IMG/VR virus record: IMGVR_UViG_3300028029_000006
Location: 312,236-376,235 of that record
Origin: a virus
Reading direction: 5' to 3' (one strand)
DNA length: 64,000 bases
The translations under genes and the position numbers were made by a program. The notes beneath the pieces were generated by a model. The model was not told the origin of the DNA, made no database searches, and was given only the letters and a program-made list of their open reading frames with translations. The stretch's first letter is position 1. Every line of letters begins with the position of its first letter. Shown here piece by piece: positions 18,865 to 60,687 of the stretch.

Positions 18865-20070
18865 TTTAATTGATGAAGTTAAAGATGCCGATTCAAAAGT
18901 GTTAGCTGCTCATGTTGTGGTTTATAGAACACTTGGAATTAATAAAGAGTTAGCTAAAGCTTGTATGAGGGAATTATCTTCAAGAAAAGATGATTTTGAT
19001 CATGAAACTTTTATAGAGGAAAAAACGGCAGCAATGCCAAAACCTAAGAATATGGATTTAGTCAAAGTTACTAAAGATATTCAAAACCAAGTAAGGAATC
19101 TAAATGTCAGAAAACCTGTCAAGGATGTTAATACAAAGAATTCTAGCTAATATTGGAGCAGTTCCAGATAGCCCCGAAGCCGCTTTAAGAAGTAGCGATC
19201 TTCTTTTAAATACACCAATGAAAATTAAATACGAAGGTGGTCCAATTAATCATAATATGTACGCTGGGCAGCTGAGTATAGGTGATTCTAAACTGAAAGG
19301 TCTTTTAATTGATCTTACTGTTGATGATTATTCAGAGTTTTTATTCTTATTTAGAATGAGTGAGTTATCAATTCATGCAGTTAAAACTTTATATGATCAA
19401 ACCGATCTTGGTGAGACATATTTAAAATCTTATAATTCTGAAAAAGATAGTTGGAATGAATTAAGTATAGAATACAAAGGTCGTTTAATGGCAGATTTTG
19501 ATAAGTTTACTTCATATGGTTTTCTTTGGGATGATTGTGATGATTATGATGATTTATTCCAAGCTGCGATTAAATTAATCAATTTACAGAAAGGGTAGTT
19601 TATGTTTGCAAATTTTGTTGCCGAGTATATTCAAGAATGTTTAAAAGAAGGTATTAATAATCCTTCTGGTATGCGTTCAAAAGCGGAAGAGGAAATTAAA
19701 AGTTTACAAAAAGAAATTGATAGAATCAAATTAATAAAAGAGAGGCAGCAAAAATTAAGAGCTGTTATTAAAAATCTTGGAGGAGGAAATTGTAGAGAAT
19801 CTAATAATGATTCTGTGCAAGACTTTAAAGCTCCAGAAAACCAATTGCCAGATTCATATAAAAGTATTATTTATGATATTTGCGATGAAATTAATGTTTC
19901 TCATCCAAAAGGAGTGGAAGCTAGTAAAATCATTCATGAAATTGCAAAATTAAATGATCATAAAAATGGTTATTCGGCAATTCAATGGTTGGGTTTTAAT
20001 AAAATCATTACTAGAGATCCAAATGACCGATCTGTTATTAAAGGACCAAGGTGGGGTAAGAGGCCAGTAC

Positions 20071-49216: not shown

Positions 49217-51379
49217 TCAATTGCCATTTTTATAAACTTTTTTAAGCAAATCAGTTGGATCTAATAGTTTCTTCGGTTTATTTTCCATTTTTTCCCATCT
49301 TAATCTGTCTTTTACTCCATGATCATAAAATTCAAAATGAAGCATAGTCATTGGGTTTCCTTTATACCTTTTCATAACTGTAACTACTTTAGCAATTACT
49401 TGGCCTTGTTTAATTTTATCTCCAGGTTCCACCAAAGGTTTAACCTCTCCGTAATTAATAACACCAGATTTCCCTTCAATTAAAATAGCCTGAGTATCAT
49501 TCCACCAACTTGTGCCAACTTTTGATCCAGTAAAATCCAGTACTGTAACTACAATACCATCTTCAATAGCAAGAACTTCAGTGTCAGGCTCGCAATATAA
49601 ATCTACTCCAGAATGAACGTATCCTCGTCTTTGATATCCAAAAGTTCCTGGTTCATTATTAACTGGAATTGGGTAATCTTTAGTTGCTAAAGGCCAAGCA
49701 AGCGATTTATCTTCACTACTATTATAGGCATCTTTCAAGATAAGCGCAACCTCTGGCCTGGTAAATTCTTCAGGAAGATCTTCTCCATTTTCAAGCATTT
49801 TTCTTACTTTAGTTCCACTTAAAAATAATTTTGTTTCAGATCCACCTGGAGCGGTTTTAACACTGCCCATTCCTTTCATCGTCTTTGAATAAAAAGTATG
49901 CTCAAAACATAAAGGAATAATCCCCAATTCTCCAGGAGAAAATTCATCAAAGATTTTTTGAGCATCATAAGTCCCATAATAATCACCTACTCCAGCATGA
50001 TCTCTGCCAACAATAAAATGACTACAACCATAATTTTTCCTACAAATTGCATGATGAATTGCTTCTCTAGGACCAGCATACCTCATTGCTGCAGGGAACA
50101 TTCCTAAAACAACGCTATTCTCTGAATAATAATTGTTAATTAAAGCTTCATAACAAGACATTCTAACATCTGCATCAACATCTCCAGCTTTAGTGGCTCC
50201 AACTAATGGGTGAATTAATAAACCATCACACATTTCTAGTGCACATTTTGTTAAATACTCATGTGCTCTATGCATTGGATTTCTTGTTTGAAAAGCTACA
50301 ATTCTTTTCCATCCTCGCTCTTCAAAAATCCATCGCGTTTCTTTTGGTGAAAAATCACCATTGTCTATATTAAAAATAGAAAAAACATTAACTTCACCAC
50401 CTAAGTAAACATCTCCTACTTTCATAACATAAGAAACTCCAGGATGTTCCATATCAGTTGTTTTGTAAACTTCTTGACATTCTAGCTCTTTATCAGGAGT
50501 AAATTTGTCAGACACAGTCATAGTACCAACAATATTACCACTTAAACCTATTAAGTTAATTAAACTTCTTAATTTGATTTTTCCAGCCTGCTCCTGACTA
50601 ACCGGCAAAACAATAGGTATAGCCCAAGGTAATCCGTTCTCCAAACGCATTTCTTTAACAACTTTTAGATAATCTTTTTCATTCATGAATCCGGTTAAAG
50701 GACTGTAGCCACCTTCGCCAATCATTCGTAAATCACAAGCCGTACGTTCATCTAATGTGACTTTAGTAAAACTAGAAGCAATCGCAAAAATACTTTCTCT
50801 ATTAACCAAAGTTCCTCCATGAGGAGCGATTAAGCCTTTTGTAGTGGTAGTATTTGTATTAATTAACCCTAATTCTTGAAGTTTATTTAAGATTTTATCT
50901 AAAGATTCTTCAGCAGTTTCTGTAAATGTATTTAATGTTATTTCTGGATTAATAGGTTTTTCATAAGGAGCGTCAATTCCAGTAAAACCTTTAATTTCTC
51001 CAGCTAAAGCTTTTTTGTATAAACCTTTTGGATCTCGTTTAATTAATTCGTCAAGTTGACAGTCGCAGTAAACTTCCACAAAGCTACTTACAAGTGCCCT
51101 CTGCGCGGCTCTGACGGCCTTGTAAGGGGAGATTGCAGCAGTGATGGCGCACCCTCCTGAGTTGGCCACTAAACTCGCTACAAAGCCAATGCGGTTGATA
51201 TTAATATCTCTATCTTCTTTTGAGAATCCAAGACCTTTTGATAGATTTTTTCTAACAACATCTCCATCTAGCACTTCTGTATGAATTCCTTGATGTTGTA
51301 ACTTTGCAGATAACATTGCTGCAAGAGTTGATTTTCCTGAACCACTTAAACCTGTAAACCAAATAACAAAACCACTCAT
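49217..51379 (-). CDS. sat: APS kinase - sulfate adenylyltransferase - M23 peptidase triple fusion
   Basis: [12 protein letters not shown] and RDPKGLY (CysC); [12 protein letters not shown] and VGRDHAG (Sat); HSGVD and LHFE (M23). Confidence 0.9.
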
Positions 51380-52864: not shown

Positions 52865-52892
52865 AATTTATTTCTTTCAAATGAAAATTAAC

Positions 52893-52923
52893 AAAAAAAA
52901 AGCTCATCAAAAAATGATAAGTT
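52893..52923 (-). terminator. Intrinsic terminator closing the RNA array
   Basis: AACTTATCA-TTTTT-TGATGAGCT followed by T8 on the - strand. Confidence 0.7.
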
Positions 52924-53161: not shown

Positions 53162-53296
53162 AAGGCATTCGAGTTAAAAATATTGTTTTATGTAATAACA
53201 TACGGGAATTGAACCCGTTACTTTCAGCCTTTTAGGCGGACGCTCTACCAGATGAGCTAATGTTGCTTGTAAATATTTTAAAGGTTTGAATGCCTT
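53162..53296 (-). ncRNA. Complete tRNA-like cloverleaf enclosed by the module stem (element B)
   Basis: AAGGCATTC/GAATGCCTT and AAAATATT/AATATTTT stems flank GCAACAT-TA-GCTC..GAGC..CTAAAAG loop..ACGGG-TTCAATT-CCCGT-ATGTTAT. Confidence 0.8.
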
Positions 53297-53586: not shown

Positions 53587-53733
53587 AACTATTATTCGAG
53601 TATTAATATCTGTTTAAAAGATCATTTTAATATGATTGCCTATACCATTTTGGCTATTTGCCCACTAAGTAGGTAAAGCAGGATTCGAACCTGCAATTTT
53701 TGCTTGTAAGATATTAACTAATGAATATTAGTT
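53587..53733 (-). ncRNA. Circularly permuted tRNA-like RNA closed by the module, Y RNA/YrlA-like (element D)
   Basis: Order: stem, TACAAGCA, T arm GCAGG-TTCGAAT-CCTGC, acceptor hairpin TTTACCT-ACTTAGT-GGGCAAA, TA, D arm GCC..TGGTA..GGC, ATCAT/ATGAT arm, AAAC, stem with TACTC loop. Confidence 0.85.
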
Positions 53734-53734
53734 G

Positions 53735-53865
53735 TGGAGAATCCAGGAATCGAACCTGATTTGCTTGTAAACACTAATTATTTGCTCTTCAATAAAGAAC
53801 GAGTTTTAGAGTTGTTAAAATTCTTTTTCCAATAAAAGTTGAGGGCCACCCTCAATTAATTCCCC
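53735..53865 (-). ncRNA. tRNA-like RNA with the module in the variable arm (element E)
   Basis: GGGGAAT/ATTCTCC, D arm TTGAGGG-TGG-CCCTCAA, insert AACTCTAA-AACTC-GTTCTT..AAGAGC-AAATAA-TTAGTGTT-TACAAGCA, T arm identical to element A. Confidence 0.8.
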
Positions 53866-53875
53866 ATTCGGTTAT

Positions 53876-53903
53876 ACTATAACCATTTATGCCTAGTTGT
53901 CAA
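53876..53903 (-). promoter_or_regulatory. Sigma70-like promoter of the RNA array
   Basis: TTGACA-16 nt-TATAGT, ending 10 nt before the 5' G of element E. Confidence 0.8.
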
Positions 53904-54645: not shown

Positions 54646-55218
54646 TCAAACCTTTATTGCACCAGCCGGGCTGATTTGGTAGTTAACCATGCGATTATTA
54701 ACAATAAATTCATGTACAGATTGTGCAAAAAAAGATGAAACAATTGCAATAAATGCCAAGTGTTCTCCATTTTCACAGGTTGCGGCACCAGCGGATGGTT
54801 CATGATCAATTTTAAAATGTTGATCCCACATTATTTGTCCAAACTCTCCATTGGCAGCTAAACCTCCATGTAGACAAGGGACATTATTTTGACGAACATA
54901 ATTTTGAACTAGGAGCCGAGCTTCGGCATTATCTAAACAATCAATAATAAGATCTGATTTTTTTAAAAGCATATCTACATTATCACTAGTAAGTTTATGA
55001 GGTATAATATTTAATTTAGTACCAAACATAAATTTCATACTTTGTTGCATTGATTGCACTTTAGATTTTCCAACAGTTTTAACGCTGTGAAATTGGGACA
55101 TAGTATTCGTTTTTTCTACTCTGTCAAAATCAATTATTGTTATATTAATTTCTTCATTTCTAATAAACTGAATAAGATGAGAGCCTAAAGCTCCAACTCC
55201 TACAATTGTTACATTCAT
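54646..55218 (-). CDS. ThiF/E1-like adenylating enzyme
   Basis: IVGVGALGS, IDFDRVE..N..SQ, K, DCLDN...R, single candidate catalytic Cys in ATCE. Confidence 0.92.
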   Translation of the reverse strand: MNVTIVGVGALGSHLIQFIRNEEINITIIDFDRVEKTNTMSQFHSVKTVGKSKVQSMQQSMKFMFGTKLNIIPHKLTSDNVDMLLKKSDLIIDCLDNAEARLLVQNYVRQNNVPCLHGGLAANGEFGQIMWDQHFKIDHEPSAGAATCENGEHLAFIAIVSSFFAQSVHEFIVNNRMVNYQISPAGAIKV

Positions 55219-55243
55219 AATTGAATTTCTTTAATGATTTCGG

Positions 55244-55513
55244 TTACTTGCCGAAGGGCACTTTCGGTCTTAAGCTTATACGATTCATTTGTACATCTTC
55301 AGTTGAAGGAAATCTATCTACTACAAAGTCATTAAAGTCTGCAACTGAATCTGTTGTAATTCCTGGCACATCGCCATTATTAACTGCTTCGGTTGCCCAA
55401 GATTTAATTTCTTCATCTGAAGAGTCAAAATGAACTGGTTGAAGTAAAGTTCCGTTTAATCCTGCAAAAGTAATATTTAAAACTGCTTCTGTTGCTGCTA
55501 ATTCTTCTGTCAT
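55244..55513 (-). CDS. Ubiquitin-like (beta-grasp) protein
   Basis: 89 aa, beta-beta-alpha-beta pattern, C-terminus LRPKVPFG-K, directly upstream of the E1 gene. Confidence 0.7.
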   Translation of the reverse strand: MTEELAATEAVLNITFAGLNGTLLQPVHFDSSDEEIKSWATEAVNNGDVPGITTDSVADFNDFVVDRFPSTEDVQMNRISLRPKVPFGK

Positions 55514-55537
55514 TGTATTTATCCTTTAAAATAATAT

Positions 55538-56001
55538 TTAGGTCATTTGTTTTTTAAATTCTTTTCTGAATTGCTTTGATAGTTTTTGGACCCTATATAT
55601 CCAATACCAATCTACTTTATCTTTAAACTCTCTAATGAAATTTTCAGATAATATTTGATCTATAGATAACACAGTCCAATATAATCTATCTTGAAATTTT
55701 CTAATGAAATCTTCTGATAATTTTTGATTAAAAGATATATTATCCCAATATACTTTATTTTGAAATTCTTTAATGAATTCTTCTGATAATTTTTGGTGAT
55801 AAGATATAGTATCCCAATCTAATTCATTTTTAAACTCTCTAATAAAATCTTCTGATAATTTTTCATATTTAGATATAGTAACCCAGCATATTTTATATTT
55901 GAATTCTTCTCTTAACTTATTTTTTAATTTACCTTTTTTTGTAAACTTCATTTCTGAACAATTATATTCAGAAGCTATTTCTTTTAATTGTTTTTTTTCA
56001 T
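55538..56001 (-). CDS. 23-aa Trp-repeat protein (leader frameshifted in an A8 run)
   Basis: Family leader from ATG 56001; about five repeats. Confidence 0.7.
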
Positions 56002-56004
56002 AAT

Positions 56005-56376
56005 TTAATAATTTGATATTTTACGTAATTCATCAAACCAGTCTGGTTTTTCGGAGACTACATGGTATATGTAATCATATTTTCCTGGTCCTAAGAACCT
56101 TGTGATGATCATATTATCACCACTAATGATGGGCCAGTCAAGCTTTTTTCCTAGTCCAATTTCAACTGCTGAGAATGTTGTAACATCTGTCCAAGAAGGA
56201 GAAGGTATTCCTAAGCCCGGATGGCTATGAGCAAAGCCCGAAATGTTATCTCGATGTTCCCAGATTACGTTCCATAAATCTAAACTATCAGGTAACTCTG
56301 ATATTGATCGATTATGAGGTGTATGAAAATAAAGAGGTTTTCCCTCTAAATCTAATAAAATTCCTGCTTCCATCAT
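56005..56376 (-). CDS. JAB/MPN+ metallo-isopeptidase
   Basis: N-terminal E (MEAG) and HSHP...PSWTD (HxH-x7-S-x2-D). Confidence 0.9.
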   Translation of the reverse strand: MMEAGILLDLEGKPLYFHTPHNRSISELPDSLDLWNVIWEHRDNISGFAHSHPGLGIPSPSWTDVTTFSAVEIGLGKKLDWPIISGDNMIITRFLGPGKYDYIYHVVSEKPDWFDELRKISNY

Positions 56377-56652
56377 GTTTATTTACCTTACCACTCAGAT
56401 GAAGCTAACCAGCCACGACCTTCGCTTTTAACCCAATTTCCAACTGTTTTGTTAATATCTTGATTGGTTTCTTCGTTGCCAATATTTATCATTGTACTAT
56501 TTAATATTAATTCACAATCAATATTTGGAATATCTTCTTCAAGACGTTCCCCTTCATGTTCTTCTAAAACTTTCCACGCATCAATTTTGCTTTTTGCAAT
56601 AACTAATTCTGAATTATATAGCCTAAACATATTTAATTTTTCTTTGTTCATA

Positions 56653-57588
56653 TTAACCTCTTCTATATATAACTAAAACGTCTTTATCAATCGCTTCTTT
56701 AATAACTCCAGGGATACTTTCTAATGTTAACCAAGTATCACCTTTGGTTCCTACTTCAAAATCATTATCATAATCATGTTCTTGTAAACATACTCCAGAA
56801 TCTATAATTCTTAAAGTTGTAGAATGACAAACGCATTCCAATCGTATGTTATTAAATTTATATTTAACAATCATTTCTTGATTTCGAATTCCTTTCCTAT
56901 GATCTAAATAAACAGCTCCTCCAAGGGAAAGAGCAGCGACTGCTGCTTGTCTAAAATCAGTAACGGCTATTTGTCTTCTAATCAATCCAGTACCAAAAGA
57001 ATCTCTCATTTGCTTTTGAAGTGCTTCTTGTCGAATTTTTTCTTCTTGAGCTTTTCTTTGATTTTCTATTTTTATTCTTATATAATTTTCAAATTTAAAA
57101 GCTATATCTAAAGCCGGTGTTACTTCTGAAATATCATCAACATTATCTTTTTGATCTAAAAATGAATTTAAAACCTCATCTTCTGGTCCCAATGGGAATT
57201 CTTCTCCAACAAAAATTAAGGGGCCATTTTCATAAATTCTACCCACTTTTATTCTTGAAAATCTTTCTATGCCAGGTTGAATTAAATAAACGAATTCAAA
57301 ATTAGATGACATTTCTTCAATAGAGAATTTTGTTTGAGTGTCATCTGTTACTAATCTACCACCAACTAAATACCCAGTAATATATTCATAGAATATTTCT
57401 TCATTTGAATCTGATTCAGATTTTAAATTAGCAATTCTGTTTTTAACATAAAAAGTATACCAACCATGTTCTGAAGGTAAAGTTCCTTTAATTTTCCAAG
57501 TGCGATTTTTGGTTTGAAGAGATCTTCCACCTACCCAAGGGATAGATAATAATTCTTCTTTTATTTGCAAATGATCTTGCCAACCCAT
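56653..57588 (-). CDS. Probable E2-like conjugating protein (C-terminal domain)
   Basis: H-x8-GVCL followed by W-LTLESI, resembling E2 H-x-N...GxICL...W...TL; operon context. Confidence 0.5.
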   Translation of the reverse strand: MGWQDHLQIKEELLSIPWVGGRSLQTKNRTWKIKGTLPSEHGWYTFYVKNRIANLKSESDSNEEIFYEYITGYLVGGRLVTDDTQTKFSIEEMSSNFEFVYLIQPGIERFSRIKVGRIYENGPLIFVGEEFPLGPEDEVLNSFLDQKDNVDDISEVTPALDIAFKFENYIRIKIENQRKAQEEKIRQEALQKQMRDSFGTGLIRRQIAVTDFRQAAVAALSLGGAVYLDHRKGIRNQEMIVKYKFNNIRLECVCHSTTLRIIDSGVCLQEHDYDNDFEVGTKGDTWLTLESIPGVIKEAIDKDVLVIYRRG

Positions 57589-57589
57589 T

Positions 57590-58087
57590 TTAATCCTTTA
57601 ATATTCCTTTATGTTTGAACTCTTCAATGAAATCGTTTGATAAATTTTGATATATAGATATATATTTCCATCTTATTTTATCTTGAAATTCTTTAATAAA
57701 ATCTTCTGATAATGTTTGAGAACAAGACACCCATCCCCAATCTAATTTATCTTGAAATTCTCTTATAAAATCTTCAGATAAATTCTGATAAATAGATATA
57801 TTAAACCAATCTACTTTATCTTTGAATTCCCTAATGAAATTTTCAGATATTTTTTGATAAAAAGATATTTCATACCAATCTACTTTATCTTGAAACTCTC
57901 TAATAAATTCCTCAGATAAAATTGATCTACTAGATATGTCATACCAAATTAATTCATATTGAAACTCCCTAATAAAATCTTCAGATAAATCTATCTTCTT
58001 AGAAAGGTGCTCCCAATTTATTATTTCAGAATGTTTTTTAAAACAAATTTTATCTTCTTTAGTAAACATTTTAATCTTCTTTTTCAT
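57590..58087 (-). CDS. 23-aa Trp-repeat protein
   Basis: About six LSEDFIREFQDK.DW repeats. Confidence 0.8.
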   Translation of the reverse strand: MKKKIKMFTKEDKICFKKHSEIINWEHLSKKIDLSEDFIREFQYELIWYDISSRSILSEEFIREFQDKVDWYEISFYQKISENFIREFKDKVDWFNISIYQNLSEDFIREFQDKLDWGWVSCSQTLSEDFIKEFQDKIRWKYISIYQNLSNDFIEEFKHKGILKD

Positions 58088-58812: not shown

Positions 58813-60687
58813 TTATGCCACCCACATTGGACGTTCCAATAATTCAGTCTTCATAATCAATTCAGCCAAAGAAACTCTCTTCTGAACAACTCTACCAATA
58901 GCTTCACGATTAACTGGAGTTGATTGAATTAATGCAGACAATGTTCTTGGAAGCTGATAAACGTCTCCAAAAATATTTTCATCAATCATAAAACAAGGAA
59001 TCCCTAAATTAGTAGCAGTATTTTGTACCGCAAACCTATTATAACCCCAACCTCCGTCAACCTTCAAAAAACCGAAAGCAACAGGATTTAAACCAGATTT
59101 ATTAACCGCTCCTTGAAAATCAGCAGCACCCTCATCTCCAATAAAGATAAAAAGAACATCTTCATCTACACTTGGCTTATTATGTTGTAGAGCCCGAACA
59201 CCACTTCCATAATCTGTACCACCTCCAGCACTGTAATTACTAAAAGCTTGACGAACTCCAACACCAGTTGAGCTTCTTAATTTAACTTCCTGACCCATAG
59301 TATTGAAGACAGAAATGTGAATTTTATCCATAGGAAACGCTTGTAAAAACTTTTCCAAATAAACTTTAGCTTGCTCAATTGCACCTTGCATAGAACCAGA
59401 GATATCAACCATAAAGTAAATTCTGATATTATCCATCTCCTTTTCAACAGCCGCCTTAACAGCCGTATCAGCAGCTTCTTGAAGTTTATCCTTCGTGCTT
59501 TGATTTTTAACACGGGAAGCAATGTTAGCAGCCCTTGTGTCAGTTGCAGTTTTCATTGCAGCTTCCCAGCGATTTTTAACTTCAGGATCTTGCAAAAGAC
59601 CTAACTCTTCCAATGTCGGAGTTAGAATAATTAAATCCTTATCTGAAAGGCAATGAGCCTCAATTGAAGCTGCAACAATTGCTCGTGTCAACCCAACACT
59701 AGCTGGAACCATACCAACAATGCGCTTATAACTCAGAGGATTCTTAACAATTCGCTCACAAATTTCAGCTTCAGAAAGACCTTCCCATGTCTCAGCTGTT
59801 GCTACAGCCTTACCAATAGCTATTTCACGTCTACCATCTTTGGCTTGAGCCTGCTTCCACCGCAAAGTTTCGAAGTATTTTGGACTAGAAGGCTTGTAAC
59901 CAACTCGTCTTGATAGTTCCATCACAGTTTTGCGAAAACCAGCTTTAACCAAACCATTTAAAAGCTTAGAATTATCTTCACGATAACGAATCCACTTTTC
60001 AACCGCTTTGTGCCAACGACCATAAAATGGCTTGCGAGCAGACCGCCCAAATCCAAGATCGCGATTAATTTCAGCAATCTCAGGAAGAGAAAGTAAATCA
60101 TGAATTCGAAGAAGAAGTTTAGGGTTTAGATCTTTCTTATCTTTACGATCAACAGTTAGAATCATGGCTTCGCCAACATCACGAAAATCATCATCAAAGA
60201 AAACAACTTCTCCATTTTCTTTAATCGGAATTCCTTTGCGATTTTGAACAAGCATCAAAGCTGCCAAAACAACTTTAAGATCTCGATGGTCTTGTGTAAA
60301 AGCGTAGGATGCCCAGCGGGCCGAAAATTCATTATTCATTTTCCAAACGTCAGCAGCTTGCTTATACATCCACGCTGCGACCTCAGGATACAATCCGGGT
60401 TTACGATATTCACCAACTTTTCGCGCACCATCTTGAACGGAATTATCATCTTGCAATTCTCCCATTCTAGTTTGGTGAACTTTTCGCCCAATTTTATTAA
60501 GACTATAAACAATTTTCTTGCCATCTTCTTCTTTATGAGTAACCGGAATCCACTTAACTCCAATTGGGCTGGTAGCATCTGGAATAACTACACCACACCT
60601 TCCATGATAAAGATGGTCTGTGTAAGATAATAGCATATTGATGGTCCGTTCTGCAGGACCGAGTGTTTCTGTTGTTGTATTGGGCAT
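58813..60687 (-). CDS. Divergent Ro60/TROVE-like protein with C-terminal vWA domain
   Basis: Helical N-domain with RWHKAVEKW, MELSRRVGYKP and ETWEGLS (Ro60-like); vWA MIDAS VDISGSM, GGTD, FIGDE. Confidence 0.72.
   Translation of the reverse strand: MPNTTTETLGPAERTINMLLSYTDHLYHGRCGVVIPDATSPIGVKWIPVTHKEEDGKKIVYSLNKIGRKVHQTRMGELQDDNSVQDGARKVGEYRKPGLYPEVAAWMYKQAADVWKMNNEFSARWASYAFTQDHRDLKVVLAALMLVQNRKGIPIKENGEVVFFDDDFRDVGEAMILTVDRKDKKDLNPKLLLRIHDLLSLPEIAEINRDLGFGRSARKPFYGRWHKAVEKWIRYREDNSKLLNGLVKAGFRKTVMELSRRVGYKPSSPKYFETLRWKQAQAKDGRREIAIGKAVATAETWEGLSEAEICERIVKNPLSYKRIVGMVPASVGLTRAIVAASIEAHCLSDKDLIILTPTLEELGLLQDPEVKNRWEAAMKTATDTRAANIASRVKNQSTKDKLQEAADTAVKAAVEKEMDNIRIYFMVDISGSMQGAIEQAKVYLEKFLQAFPMDKIHISVFNTMGQEVKLRSSTGVGVRQAFSNYSAGGGTDYGSGVRALQHNKPSVDEDVLFIFIGDEGAADFQGAVNKSGLNPVAFGFLKVDGGWGYNRFAVQNTATNLGIPCFMIDENIFGDVYQLPRTLSALIQSTPVNREAIGRVVQKRVSLAELIMKTELLERPMWVA

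What the first reader, a model, noticed from the sequence alone, without database searches (positions are those of the whole stretch)
53162..53296. Whole cloverleaf sealed inside the module (element B)
A near-canonical 73-nt tRNA (53194-53266; loop CT-AAA-AG, nominal Phe anticodon AAA, unusual in bacteria) has no CCA. Its ends extend into the module helices and the conserved ACAAGCA overlaps the first acceptor bases. This third topology blocks the acceptor end and exposes the anticodon loop, the geometry expected of bait for anticodon nucleases, or of a precursor whose release depends on a binding protein.
Basis: partly seen in the sequence, partly recalled or inferred. Interest (0 to 1): 0.75.

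Follow-up and report, generated by a model that had tools for sequence, protein, structure and literature searches.

The report
tRNA-shaped RNA on Ro60-partner handle
A whole tRNA-shaped fold is enclosed by a conserved two-helix "handle" in a 409-kb phage; it belongs to a widespread, apparently undescribed RNA family that flanks a Ro60-like gene cluster and is more likely a tRNA look-alike partner RNA than a working phenylalanine tRNA.

Summary
On the minus strand, 53296-53162 folds as helix 1, internal loop, helix 2, U-ACAAGCA, a 73-nt cloverleaf (53266-53194, anticodon AAA, no CCA), a linker, then the return strands.

It is not a one-off. A covariance model found 58 distinct elements of this build in 44 related giant-phage loci. 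Both handle helices covary: 95% of cells pair, against 32-45% when partners are slid. Fifty-two of 57 lie within 3 kb after, or 1.7 kb before, a conserved cluster: a Ro60-fold/vWA protein, a 311-aa unknown, JAB, an 89-aa protein and E1.

"Near-canonical tRNA" is overstated.
- This copy has only 5 Watson-Crick acceptor pairs, a C29xU41 mismatch, and C32/G38 and U33/A37 that could close the loop.
- Across the family the acceptor stem is 1-8 bp (3 bp in 16 of 58 full-build elements).
- 28% carry a non-Arg A34, against 1.8% of ordinary tRNAs nearby.
- Seven class-I bodies carry serine anticodons.
- The two closest relatives carry UGG and AUU in the same array slot.

Best reading (0.5): a Y-RNA-like partner RNA that displays a tRNA mimic. 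Protein binding, processing and the nuclease-bait idea are untested. A true UUU-decoding tRNA precursor stays possible (0.2).

Earlier notes of this scan report similar handle-tagged tRNA mimics beside Ro60-like genes on other DNA.

The parts
53288..53296 (-). Handle helix 1, 5' strand (AAGGCAUUC)
   Evidence: Pairs with 53170-53162 in the minimum-energy fold. All 9 family pairs show changes on both sides and 94% of cells pair.
53280..53287 (-). Handle internal loop, 5' side (A/C-rich; begins with the family-conserved A after the closing C-G pair)
   Evidence: Family consensus ...C|A...; unpaired in the fold.
53272..53279 (-). Handle helix 2, 5' strand (AAAAUAUU)
   Evidence: Pairs with 53184-53177. 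All 8 family pairs show changes on both sides and 90.5% of cells pair.
53264..53271 (-). Junction motif U-ACAAGCA (family consensus Y-ACA-[A/C]-GC-a); the last three bases overlap tRNA positions 1-3
   Evidence: Pattern search; family consensus nACAnGCa; the same motif in the four other module copies of the window.
53194..53266 (-). tRNA-shaped domain. D arm 53257-53242. Anticodon arm 53240-53224, with AAA at 53233-53231. T arm 53218-53202. Acceptor strands 53266-53260 and 53201-53195, of which only AACAU/AUGUU are Watson-Crick pairs. Position 73 is U. No CCA.
   Evidence: Rfam RF00005 at 48.3 bits; ARAGORN Phe-AAA; energy and pair probabilities.
53185..53193 (-). 3' linker (ACAUAAAAC); the family equivalent is A/C-rich and 8-30 nt long
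53177..53184 (-). Handle helix 2, 3' strand (AAUAUUUU)
53171..53176 (-). Handle internal loop, 3' side (UAACUC; family consensus n-CUC followed by G)
   Evidence: CUCG is conserved at 90% or more in 58 elements.
53162..53170 (-). Handle helix 1, 3' strand (GAAUGCCUU)
53876..53903 (-). Promoter-like site (TTGACA, 16 nt, TATAGT; 11 of 12) at the head of the RNA array that contains element B
   Evidence: The first array element starts at 53865.
52892..52921 (-). AT-rich 7-bp hairpin plus a run of U just after the last array element; a probable terminator of the array transcript
   Evidence: Read from the sequence. The scan did not call it because the stem has fewer than 3 G-C pairs.
58813..60687 (-). 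624-aa Ro60-fold + vWA protein, the candidate protein partner
   Evidence: Pfam finds VWA_2 only and no Pfam TROVE match. AlphaFold2 pLDDT 80. The nine best Foldseek matches are Ro60/TROVE structures, E 6e-8 to 1e-5, over about 540 columns. The DxSxS..T..D residues are invariant.
54646..57588 (-). Conserved partners of the cluster: 311-aa unknown (56653-57588), JAB (56005-56376), 89-aa protein (55244-55513), ThiF/E1 (54646-55218)
   Evidence: Pfam. tblastn finds them in 57-59 of 66 loci, always on the same strand as the Ro-like gene.

Best explanation
Element B is one member of a conserved family of small RNAs encoded immediately beside a phage Ro60-like gene cluster. A two-helix handle (helix 1, internal loop with CA / CUCG, helix 2, Y-ACA-[A/C]-GC) clamps both ends of a tRNA-shaped domain. 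I infer three things. The handle is the binding platform for the Ro60-fold/vWA protein or another protein of the cluster. The RNA is cut out of a roughly 970-nt array transcript and stays about 135-140 nt long. The tRNA-shaped part works as a mimic that presents a tRNA elbow and an anticodon-type loop to tRNA-binding factors, not as a decoder of UUU. Shown here: the structure, its covariation, the family, its genomic linkage, and the non-canonical tRNA features. Inferred: protein binding, RNA ends, and what the mimic attracts.
For: Structure and family. Model R1 scores B at 109.7 bits over its full length. Ordinary tRNAs match only the inner part, at 48 bits or less. In 58 distinct elements, 95% of cells pair against 32-45% when partners are slid, and every handle pair shows changes on both sides.

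Linkage. Forty-two of 57 elements start within 3 kb after the E1 gene (median 592 nt), and 10 more lie within 1.7 kb before the Ro-like gene. In six complete genomes there are 1-2 copies each and one Ro-like gene each; 9 of the 10 copies lie within about 22 kb of that gene.

Protein. The nine best Foldseek matches are Ro60 structures, including that of Thermus phage phiLo, whose protein binds Y-RNA-like RNAs in vitro (PMC12135203). Bacterial YrlA is a published precedent for a Ro60 partner RNA with a tRNA-like domain (PMC4201824).

Not a normal tRNA.
- Acceptor stems are 1-8 bp across the 58 full-build elements, and 3 bp in 16 of them (the call's seven extra rows, which do not have this build, are left out).
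- B and its two closest relatives have only 4-5 Watson-Crick acceptor pairs, and their anticodons are AAA, UGG and AUU.
- Non-Arg A34 occurs in 15 of 54 seven-nt loops, against 14 of 790 other tRNAs in the same loci.
- Seven class-I bodies carry serine anticodons.
- In B, C32/G38 and U33/A37 can pair, and the acceptor pairs have about 1% predicted probability in context.

Elements of tRNA shape that are kept: the D and T loops are conserved at 90% or more (G18-G19, GGUUCaAnuCC), U33 in 45 of 54 loops and a purine at 37 in 52 of 54.
Against: There are no binding, transcript or processing data. The handle lacks the GNCGAA/CGAA motif of known Y RNAs, and B does not match Rfam YrlA. The protein has no Pfam TROVE match, and its TM-scores to Ro60 are modest (0.30-0.50). 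The cluster sits among tRNA genes, so part of the linkage could reflect a shared tRNA region. Many family members have 6-7 bp acceptor stems and tRNA-like anticodon loops, as real tRNAs would. This phage has no other Phe tRNA, and 83% of its Phe codons are UUU.
Confidence: 0.5

Rival explanations
1. B is a genuine precursor of a decoding tRNA-Phe(AAA). The handle is a leader-trailer helix removed by RNase P and 3' trimming, perhaps helped by the Ro-like protein. CCA is then added, and the A34 tRNA reads the phage's abundant UUU codons by Watson-Crick pairing.
For: The cloverleaf passes Rfam and ARAGORN. It is the only Phe-type tRNA among the genome's 21. UUU outnumbers UUC 4283 to 907, and most of the phage's other tRNAs read A/U-ending codons. 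The isolated 73-mer folds as a cloverleaf with a 5-bp acceptor stem. M. smegmatis YrlA shows that a Ro-partner RNA can be cut by RNase P and receive CCA (PMC4201824).
Against: Only 5 Watson-Crick acceptor pairs, with G.U and C x A at the top. U at position 73. C29 x U41. C32-G38 and U33-A37 are complementary. The closest relatives carry UGG and AUU in the same array slot. Family acceptor stems go down to 3 bp, and serine anticodons sit on class-I bodies.
Confidence: 0.2
2. B is specifically a decoy or sensor for host anticodon nucleases. The sealed acceptor end keeps it out of translation, and the exposed anticodon-type loop soaks up or reports a tRNA-cleaving defence enzyme.
For: Anticodon loops in the family keep tRNA shape (7 nt in 54 of 58, U33, purine 37), but their sequence is free and rich in A34. 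Phage tRNAs are known to counter tRNA-cleaving defences (PMC10264068, PMC11555353).
Against: No nuclease target is known for a Phe-type loop here. The anticodon arm diverges no faster than the handle stems (mean identity about 0.47 against about 0.45), so there is no sign of special diversifying selection. B's own loop may collapse to 3 nt.
Confidence: 0.15
3. The handle is only a processing signal, an RNase III-like or phage endonuclease site with two stems and an internal loop. It excises units from the array transcript and is then discarded.
For: B lies inside a promoter-to-terminator array and must be cut out. The stem, internal loop, stem shape recalls known phage RNase III signals (my own knowledge).
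Against: The same handle occurs as an internal arm closed by a loop in two window elements and as a handle-only RNA, where cutting it would destroy the RNA. The loop motifs are conserved across very different phages.
Confidence: 0.08
4. B is a decaying tRNA gene that happens to lie between inverted repeats and has no function.
For: Weak acceptor stem, unusual anticodon, no CCA.
Against: Fifty-eight relatives share compensatory changes in both helices and loop motifs conserved at 90% or more.
Confidence: 0.03

Closest known systems
Bacterial and phage Y RNAs of the YrlA type with Rsr/Ro60 (Chen et al. 2014, PMC4201824; Rfam RF02553)
   Same: Encoded beside a Ro60-fold protein. Two-part RNA: a closing stem, internal loop, stem joined to a tRNA-like domain with authentic D- and T-arm features. 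One member (M. smegmatis) has a 7-bp acceptor stem, is cut by RNase P and gains CCA.
   Different: B does not match RF02553 and has no GNCGAA motif; the handle motifs are Y-ACA-[A/C]-GC and CUCG. YrlA is circularly permuted, lacks a true anticodon arm and is joined through the anticodon-stem side. B is an unpermuted, complete cloverleaf joined through the acceptor end. The protein has no Pfam TROVE match, carries an extra N-terminal beta-rich part, and travels with JAB, E1 and two unknown proteins.
Thermus phage phiLo Ro60 with Yrl1/Yrl2 (PMC12135203; PDB 9KOP, 9L5Y)
   Same: Phage-encoded Ro60 with neighbouring small RNAs built as stem, bulge, stem. These are the best structural matches of the 624-aa protein.
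   Different: The Yrl RNAs are simple hairpins with a CGAA motif and no tRNA body. The cluster there has no ubiquitin-like conjugation genes.
Phage tRNAs with altered anticodon loops that escape tRNA-cleaving defences (PMC10264068, PMC11555353)
   Same: Phage-encoded tRNA-shaped RNAs with unusual anticodon loops, placed among tRNA genes.
   Different: Those are free, charged, decoding tRNAs. B is enclosed by a 17-bp handle, and its family has variable acceptor length.
Ordinary pre-tRNA with leader-trailer pairing
   Same: A cloverleaf without CCA inside a polycistronic transcript.
   Different: The flanks are a conserved, covarying, motif-bearing module shared with non-tRNA elements. Ordinary tRNAs of the same phages lack it.

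Membership tests
tRNA (Rfam RF00005), as a decoding tRNA | Cloverleaf scoring above the family threshold | tested here: met
   48.3 bits against a gathering score of 29; ARAGORN Phe-AAA.
tRNA (Rfam RF00005), as a decoding tRNA | Seven-pair acceptor stem with a free, CCA-bearing or CCA-addable 3' end | tested here: not met
   Five Watson-Crick pairs plus G.U and C x A. No CCA. Both ends continue into the handle. Acceptor pair probability is about 0.01 in context.
tRNA (Rfam RF00005), as a decoding tRNA | Anticodon kept between orthologues and consistent with charging identity | tested here: not met
   AAA, UGG and AUU in the same slot of the closest relatives. The family carries serine anticodons on class-I bodies and 28% non-Arg A34.
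tRNA (Rfam RF00005), as a decoding tRNA | Elbow nucleotides (G18 G19; T54 psi55 C56) | tested here: met
   Present in B and conserved at 90% or more in the family.
tRNA (Rfam RF00005), as a decoding tRNA | Aminoacylation and use on the ribosome | not testable with these tools
   Needs acid-gel or tRNA-sequencing experiments.
YrlA / bacterial Y RNA (Rfam RF02553) | Match to the covariance model | tested here: not met
   No match over B even at E up to 10. The only weak match (17.9 bits against 69) is to another element, at 53638-53696.
YrlA / bacterial Y RNA (Rfam RF02553) | GNCGAA(N)G motif in the internal loop (PMC4201824) | tested here: not met
   Absent from B and from the family consensus. 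Y-ACA-[A/C]-GC takes the equivalent place.
YrlA / bacterial Y RNA (Rfam RF02553) | Encoded next to a Ro60 orthologue | tested here: met
   Met at the level of fold, not of sequence family: Foldseek and tight flanking of the cluster.
YrlA / bacterial Y RNA (Rfam RF02553) | Bound by the Ro60 protein | not testable with these tools
   Needs pull-down or gel-shift assays.
Handle-capped tRNA-shaped RNAs of the Ro60-like cluster (model R1, built here) | Full-length match with both handle helices, the junction motif and the CUCG loop | tested here: met
   109.7 bits, model positions 1-132. B was in the seed, but 50 non-seed members score 64-112 bits.
Handle-capped tRNA-shaped RNAs of the Ro60-like cluster (model R1, built here) | Position immediately flanking the cluster | tested here: met
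   B starts 1350 nt after the E1 gene. The family median is 592 nt.
Ro60 / TROVE proteins (for the 624-aa neighbour) | Pfam TROVE (PF05731) match | tested here: not met
   No match in the genome or in the protein.
Ro60 / TROVE proteins (for the 624-aa neighbour) | Helical-repeat domain plus C-terminal vWA with MIDAS residues, resembling solved Ro60 | tested here: met
   The nine best Foldseek matches are Ro60/TROVE, over 513-557 columns, E 6e-8 to 1e-5, TM 0.30-0.50. The vWA domain scores Z 15. D428, S430, S432, T491 and D518 are invariant.

The most novel reading that the evidence does not exclude
The Ro60-like/vWA protein, loaded with interchangeable handle-tagged tRNA mimics such as B, uses the mimic as bait to capture host tRNA-binding enzymes, for example anticodon nucleases. 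The co-encoded E1, JAB and small ubiquitin-like protein then tag or neutralise what is caught. This would be an RNA-baited protein-conjugation counter-defence of giant phages.
Probability: 0.08. Interest if true: 0.9.

Novelty: new variant of a known kind. Interest (0 to 1): 0.62.

Why it matters
Ro60-Y RNA particles are conserved from bacteria to humans, yet what the tRNA-like part of bacterial Y RNAs does is still open. This is a large natural series: 58 elements of this topology alone, and other topologies in the same arrays. The same handle carries complete, permuted or truncated tRNA bodies next to a Ro60-fold protein in giant phages that also hold dozens of tRNA genes. That gives a direct handle on which tRNA features the particle needs (elbow and anticodon-type loop kept, acceptor length free). 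It also links Ro60-like proteins to a ubiquitin-like conjugation cluster. On the practical side, such elements are currently annotated as odd tRNAs (here 'tRNA-Phe AAA') or missed altogether, which distorts counts of phage tRNAs and codon-supply arguments.

Tried and rejected
- A single-protein scan of viral contigs and an exact DNA pattern for the motif plus T arm found nothing. The profile scan was needed.
- BLAST of the array against GenBank phages matched only the neighbouring tRNA-Met.
- Only one GenBank record (KX853510.1) encodes the protein. Its B-type element is unannotated.
- A sequence search of the PDB saw only the vWA domain.
- The VIA second look was filled by vWA domains and says nothing about the N-terminal part.
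- The 311-aa partner has no PHROG or Pfam family, no Foldseek match at E of 0.001 or better, and a best VIA Z of 4.8 (small beta-barrels).
- I tested whether the anticodon arm evolves faster than the rest. It diverges like the handle stems (about 0.47 against about 0.45 identity) whatever the body identity, so I claim only lack of conservation, not acceleration.
- I considered a BHB-type splicing motif, a self-cleaving ribozyme and a K-turn for the handle. No Rfam match, and the motifs do not fit by reading.
- A check for TAG recoding, prompted by a CUA tRNA, was inconclusive.
- Literature searches found no description of this handle or of a Ro60-like plus E1/JAB cluster.

Full report
**Setting.** The window is bases 312236-376235 of a 409-kb IMG/VR phage record with about 31% G+C. 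Element B lies on the minus strand, inside a run of small RNA genes. A strong promoter-like site (TTGACA, 16 nt, TATAGT) sits at 53903-53876, just before the first element at 53865. An AT-rich hairpin with a U run (52921-52892) follows the last element. B is therefore an internal unit of a transcript of roughly 970 nt and has to be cut out.

**The observation.**
- Rfam's tRNA model matches 53266-53194 at 48.3 bits, and ARAGORN calls tRNA-Phe(AAA).
- The loop is C-U-AAA-A-G, and no CCA follows.
- ACAAGCA (53270-53264) overlaps tRNA bases 1-3. Five of its 12 occurrences in the window cluster on this strand within 800 nt.
- The flanks form a 9-bp helix 1 and an 8-bp helix 2, separated by an internal loop. 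The 135-nt fold has z = -3.9.
- The same stem, loop, stem, Y-ACAAGCA ... ACUC build closes a handle-only RNA and a permuted tRNA-like RNA in the window.

**The cloverleaf is less canonical than stated.**
- Pair 1:72 is G.U and 2:71 is C x A, so only AACAU/AUGUU pair by Watson-Crick.
- Position 73 is U.
- C29 x U41 is a mismatch.
- C32/G38 and U33/A37 are complementary, and the minimum-energy fold closes the loop to three A's.
- In the nearest-neighbour model the acceptor pairs have about 1% probability inside the whole element, although the isolated 73-mer does fold as a cloverleaf with a 5-bp acceptor stem. Such energies ignore tertiary contacts, so this is a hint only.

**Relatives.** The 624-aa protein encoded 5.5 kb upstream (58813-60687) has nearly 2000 homologues at about 60% identity, many on contigs of 350-450 kb. 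A profile scan fetched 62 viral loci, and exact look-ups added four more.

I built a covariance model (R1) from eight elements with B's build. It found 58 distinct full-length matches (64-126 bits) in 44 sources: the window and 43 related loci. Ordinary tRNAs of the same loci match only the inner positions, at 48 bits or less.

On these 58 sequences:
- 95% of cells form a standard pair, against 32-45% when partners are slid by 1-3 columns.
- All 17 handle pairs show changes on both sides.
- The consensus keeps C|A and CUC|G around the internal loop and n-ACA-n-GC-a after helix 2.

**Genomic linkage.** tblastn shows a conserved, co-oriented cluster: the Ro-like protein (66 of 66 loci), a 311-aa protein (59), JAB (58), an 89-aa protein (57) and a ThiF-type E1 (57).
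- Of 57 B-type elements, 42 start within 3 kb downstream of the E1 gene (median 592 nt). This holds even though the distance from the Ro-like gene varies from 4 to 10 kb.
- Ten more lie within 1.7 kb upstream of the Ro-like gene.
- Six complete genomes of 376-436 kb hold 1-2 B-type elements and a single Ro-like gene each. Nine of the 10 elements lie within about 22 kb of that gene.

The cluster sits among tRNA genes, so some of this proximity may reflect a shared region. The placement directly at the cluster's edge goes beyond that.

**The protein.**
- Pfam sees only a vWA domain, with no TROVE match.
- An AlphaFold2 model built from 30 homologues (pLDDT 80) has Ro60/TROVE structures as its nine best Foldseek matches. 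These are Thermus phage phiLo, Deinococcus Rsr and Xenopus Ro, aligned over 513-557 columns at E 6e-8 to 1e-5. TM-scores are modest, at 0.30-0.50.
- The MIDAS residues are invariant.
- I accept 'Ro60-like fold' but not membership of the TROVE sequence family.

The phiLo protein binds neighbouring Y-RNA-like hairpins in vitro (PMC12135203). Bacterial YrlA is a Ro60 partner with a tRNA-like domain, and the M. smegmatis form is cut by RNase P and gains CCA (PMC4201824).

**Is B a working tRNA? Family-level evidence says mostly not.**
- Among the 58 full-build elements the acceptor stems are 1, 2, 3, 4, 5, 6, 7 or 8 bp long in 1, 3, 16, 3, 8, 14, 11 and 2 elements respectively, often with an internal mismatch (seven further rows of that call do not have this build and are left out).
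- B and its two closest relatives (protein identity 73% and 69%) have 4-5 Watson-Crick acceptor pairs. Their D, variable and T regions are nearly identical, yet their anticodon arms are unrelated, reading AAA, UGG and AUU.
- Among the 54 seven-nt loops, position 34 is U 20, A 18, G 9 and C 7. Non-Arg A34 is 28%, against 1.8% (14 of 790) in the other ARAGORN tRNAs of the same loci.
- Seven elements carry serine anticodons on bodies without the long variable arm that seryl-tRNA synthetase needs (the requirement is established knowledge).

On the other hand, tRNA shape is under selection. G18-G19 and the T loop are conserved at 90% or more. Fifty-four of 58 loops have 7 nt, U33 is present in 45 of 54, and a purine sits at position 37 in 52 of 54. 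What is kept is the elbow and an anticodon-type loop. What is free is the anticodon and the acceptor length. That is the profile of a mimic.

**What speaks for a real tRNA.** B is the only Phe-type tRNA among the genome's 21. UUU makes up 83% of Phe codons, and the phage's other tRNAs mostly read A/U-ending codons. I therefore keep a true UUU decoder, released from the handle, as the main rival (0.2).

**Mechanism, with status of each step.**
- Shown: a conserved, covarying handle clamps both ends of a tRNA-shaped domain, and the family flanks a cluster encoding a Ro60-fold protein.
- Inferred: the handle is the protein-binding platform, by analogy with the stem, loop, stem of Y RNAs.
- Inferred: RNase P cleavage 5' of the next element would leave B's 3' end a few bases past helix 1.
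- Inferred: the tRNA-shaped part engages tRNA-binding factors.
The anticodon arm diverges no faster than the handle stems, so I see no signature of special diversifying selection.

**Comparison and novelty.** B works like a Y RNA of the YrlA type but is not a member of that family. It has no RF02553 match and no GNCGAA motif. It is an unpermuted, complete cloverleaf joined through the acceptor end rather than a permuted, anticodon-less domain (PMC4201824). I found no paper or Rfam family that describes the handle or the Ro60-like plus E1/JAB cluster.

Earlier notes of this scan report similar handle-tagged tRNA mimics beside Ro60-like genes in other phages, there with ACAGCAA after a 7-bp stem, and other elements of this same array. 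I treated these as leads, not as evidence. I rate the finding as a new variant of a known kind, of moderate to high interest.

Noticed in passing
own genome 250663-250734 (outside the window): ARAGORN calls a tRNA with anticodon CUA, an amber-suppressor type. TAG is the rarest stop after long ORFs (28 of 317). Reading TAG as sense lengthens ORFs only modestly, so recoding is neither shown nor excluded.
   Followed up: partly
window 49217-51379 (-): A 720-aa fusion of APS kinase, a PUA-like domain, ATP sulfurylase and an M23 peptidase domain. The same sulfate-activation gene follows the RNA array in a relative (L063).
   Followed up: no
window 56653-57588 (-): A 311-aa protein conserved in 59 of 66 loci. 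The model is confident (pLDDT 84) and shows small beta-barrels, a 40-residue helix and invariant Cys252, Cys254 and Cys267. There is no recognisable fold match (best Z 4.8) and no family.
   Followed up: partly
window 57590-58087 and 55538-55951 (-): Two paralogous proteins (both phrog_3532, function unknown) are inserted in the cluster. They are found in only one of the 66 related loci.
   Followed up: no
L063:19203-19360 and 19446-19650: In the closest relative, the same handle encloses tRNA bodies opened at yet other points: the anticodon arm comes first, then the T arm, a closed acceptor hairpin and the D arm. The array holds more permutations than the three seen in the window.
   Followed up: no
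L067:20821-20951 (GenBank KX853510.1): In the only GenBank phage record with this protein, a B-type element (75.9 bits) lies unannotated between two annotated tRNAs, shortly after the ThiF-like gene and one further hypothetical gene.
   Followed up: yes
related loci, e.g. L015:5896-5970, L017:1908-2162: Several 'Leu' tRNAs called by ARAGORN are only 74-77 nt long, with no long variable arm. This is unusual for bacterial-type leucine tRNAs.
   Followed up: no
L025:296-694, L027:19481-19841, L032:17803-18160, L034:3291-3666, L047:11865-12243: These giant phages encode their own tmRNA genes within about 10 kb of the Ro-like cluster.
   Followed up: no
several family members, e.g. L043:4783-4917, L034:8868-9015, L025:17096-17229: The 3' linker between the tRNA-shaped domain and helix 2 sometimes carries an extra G+C-rich hairpin capped by a GNRA-type loop.
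   Followed up: no
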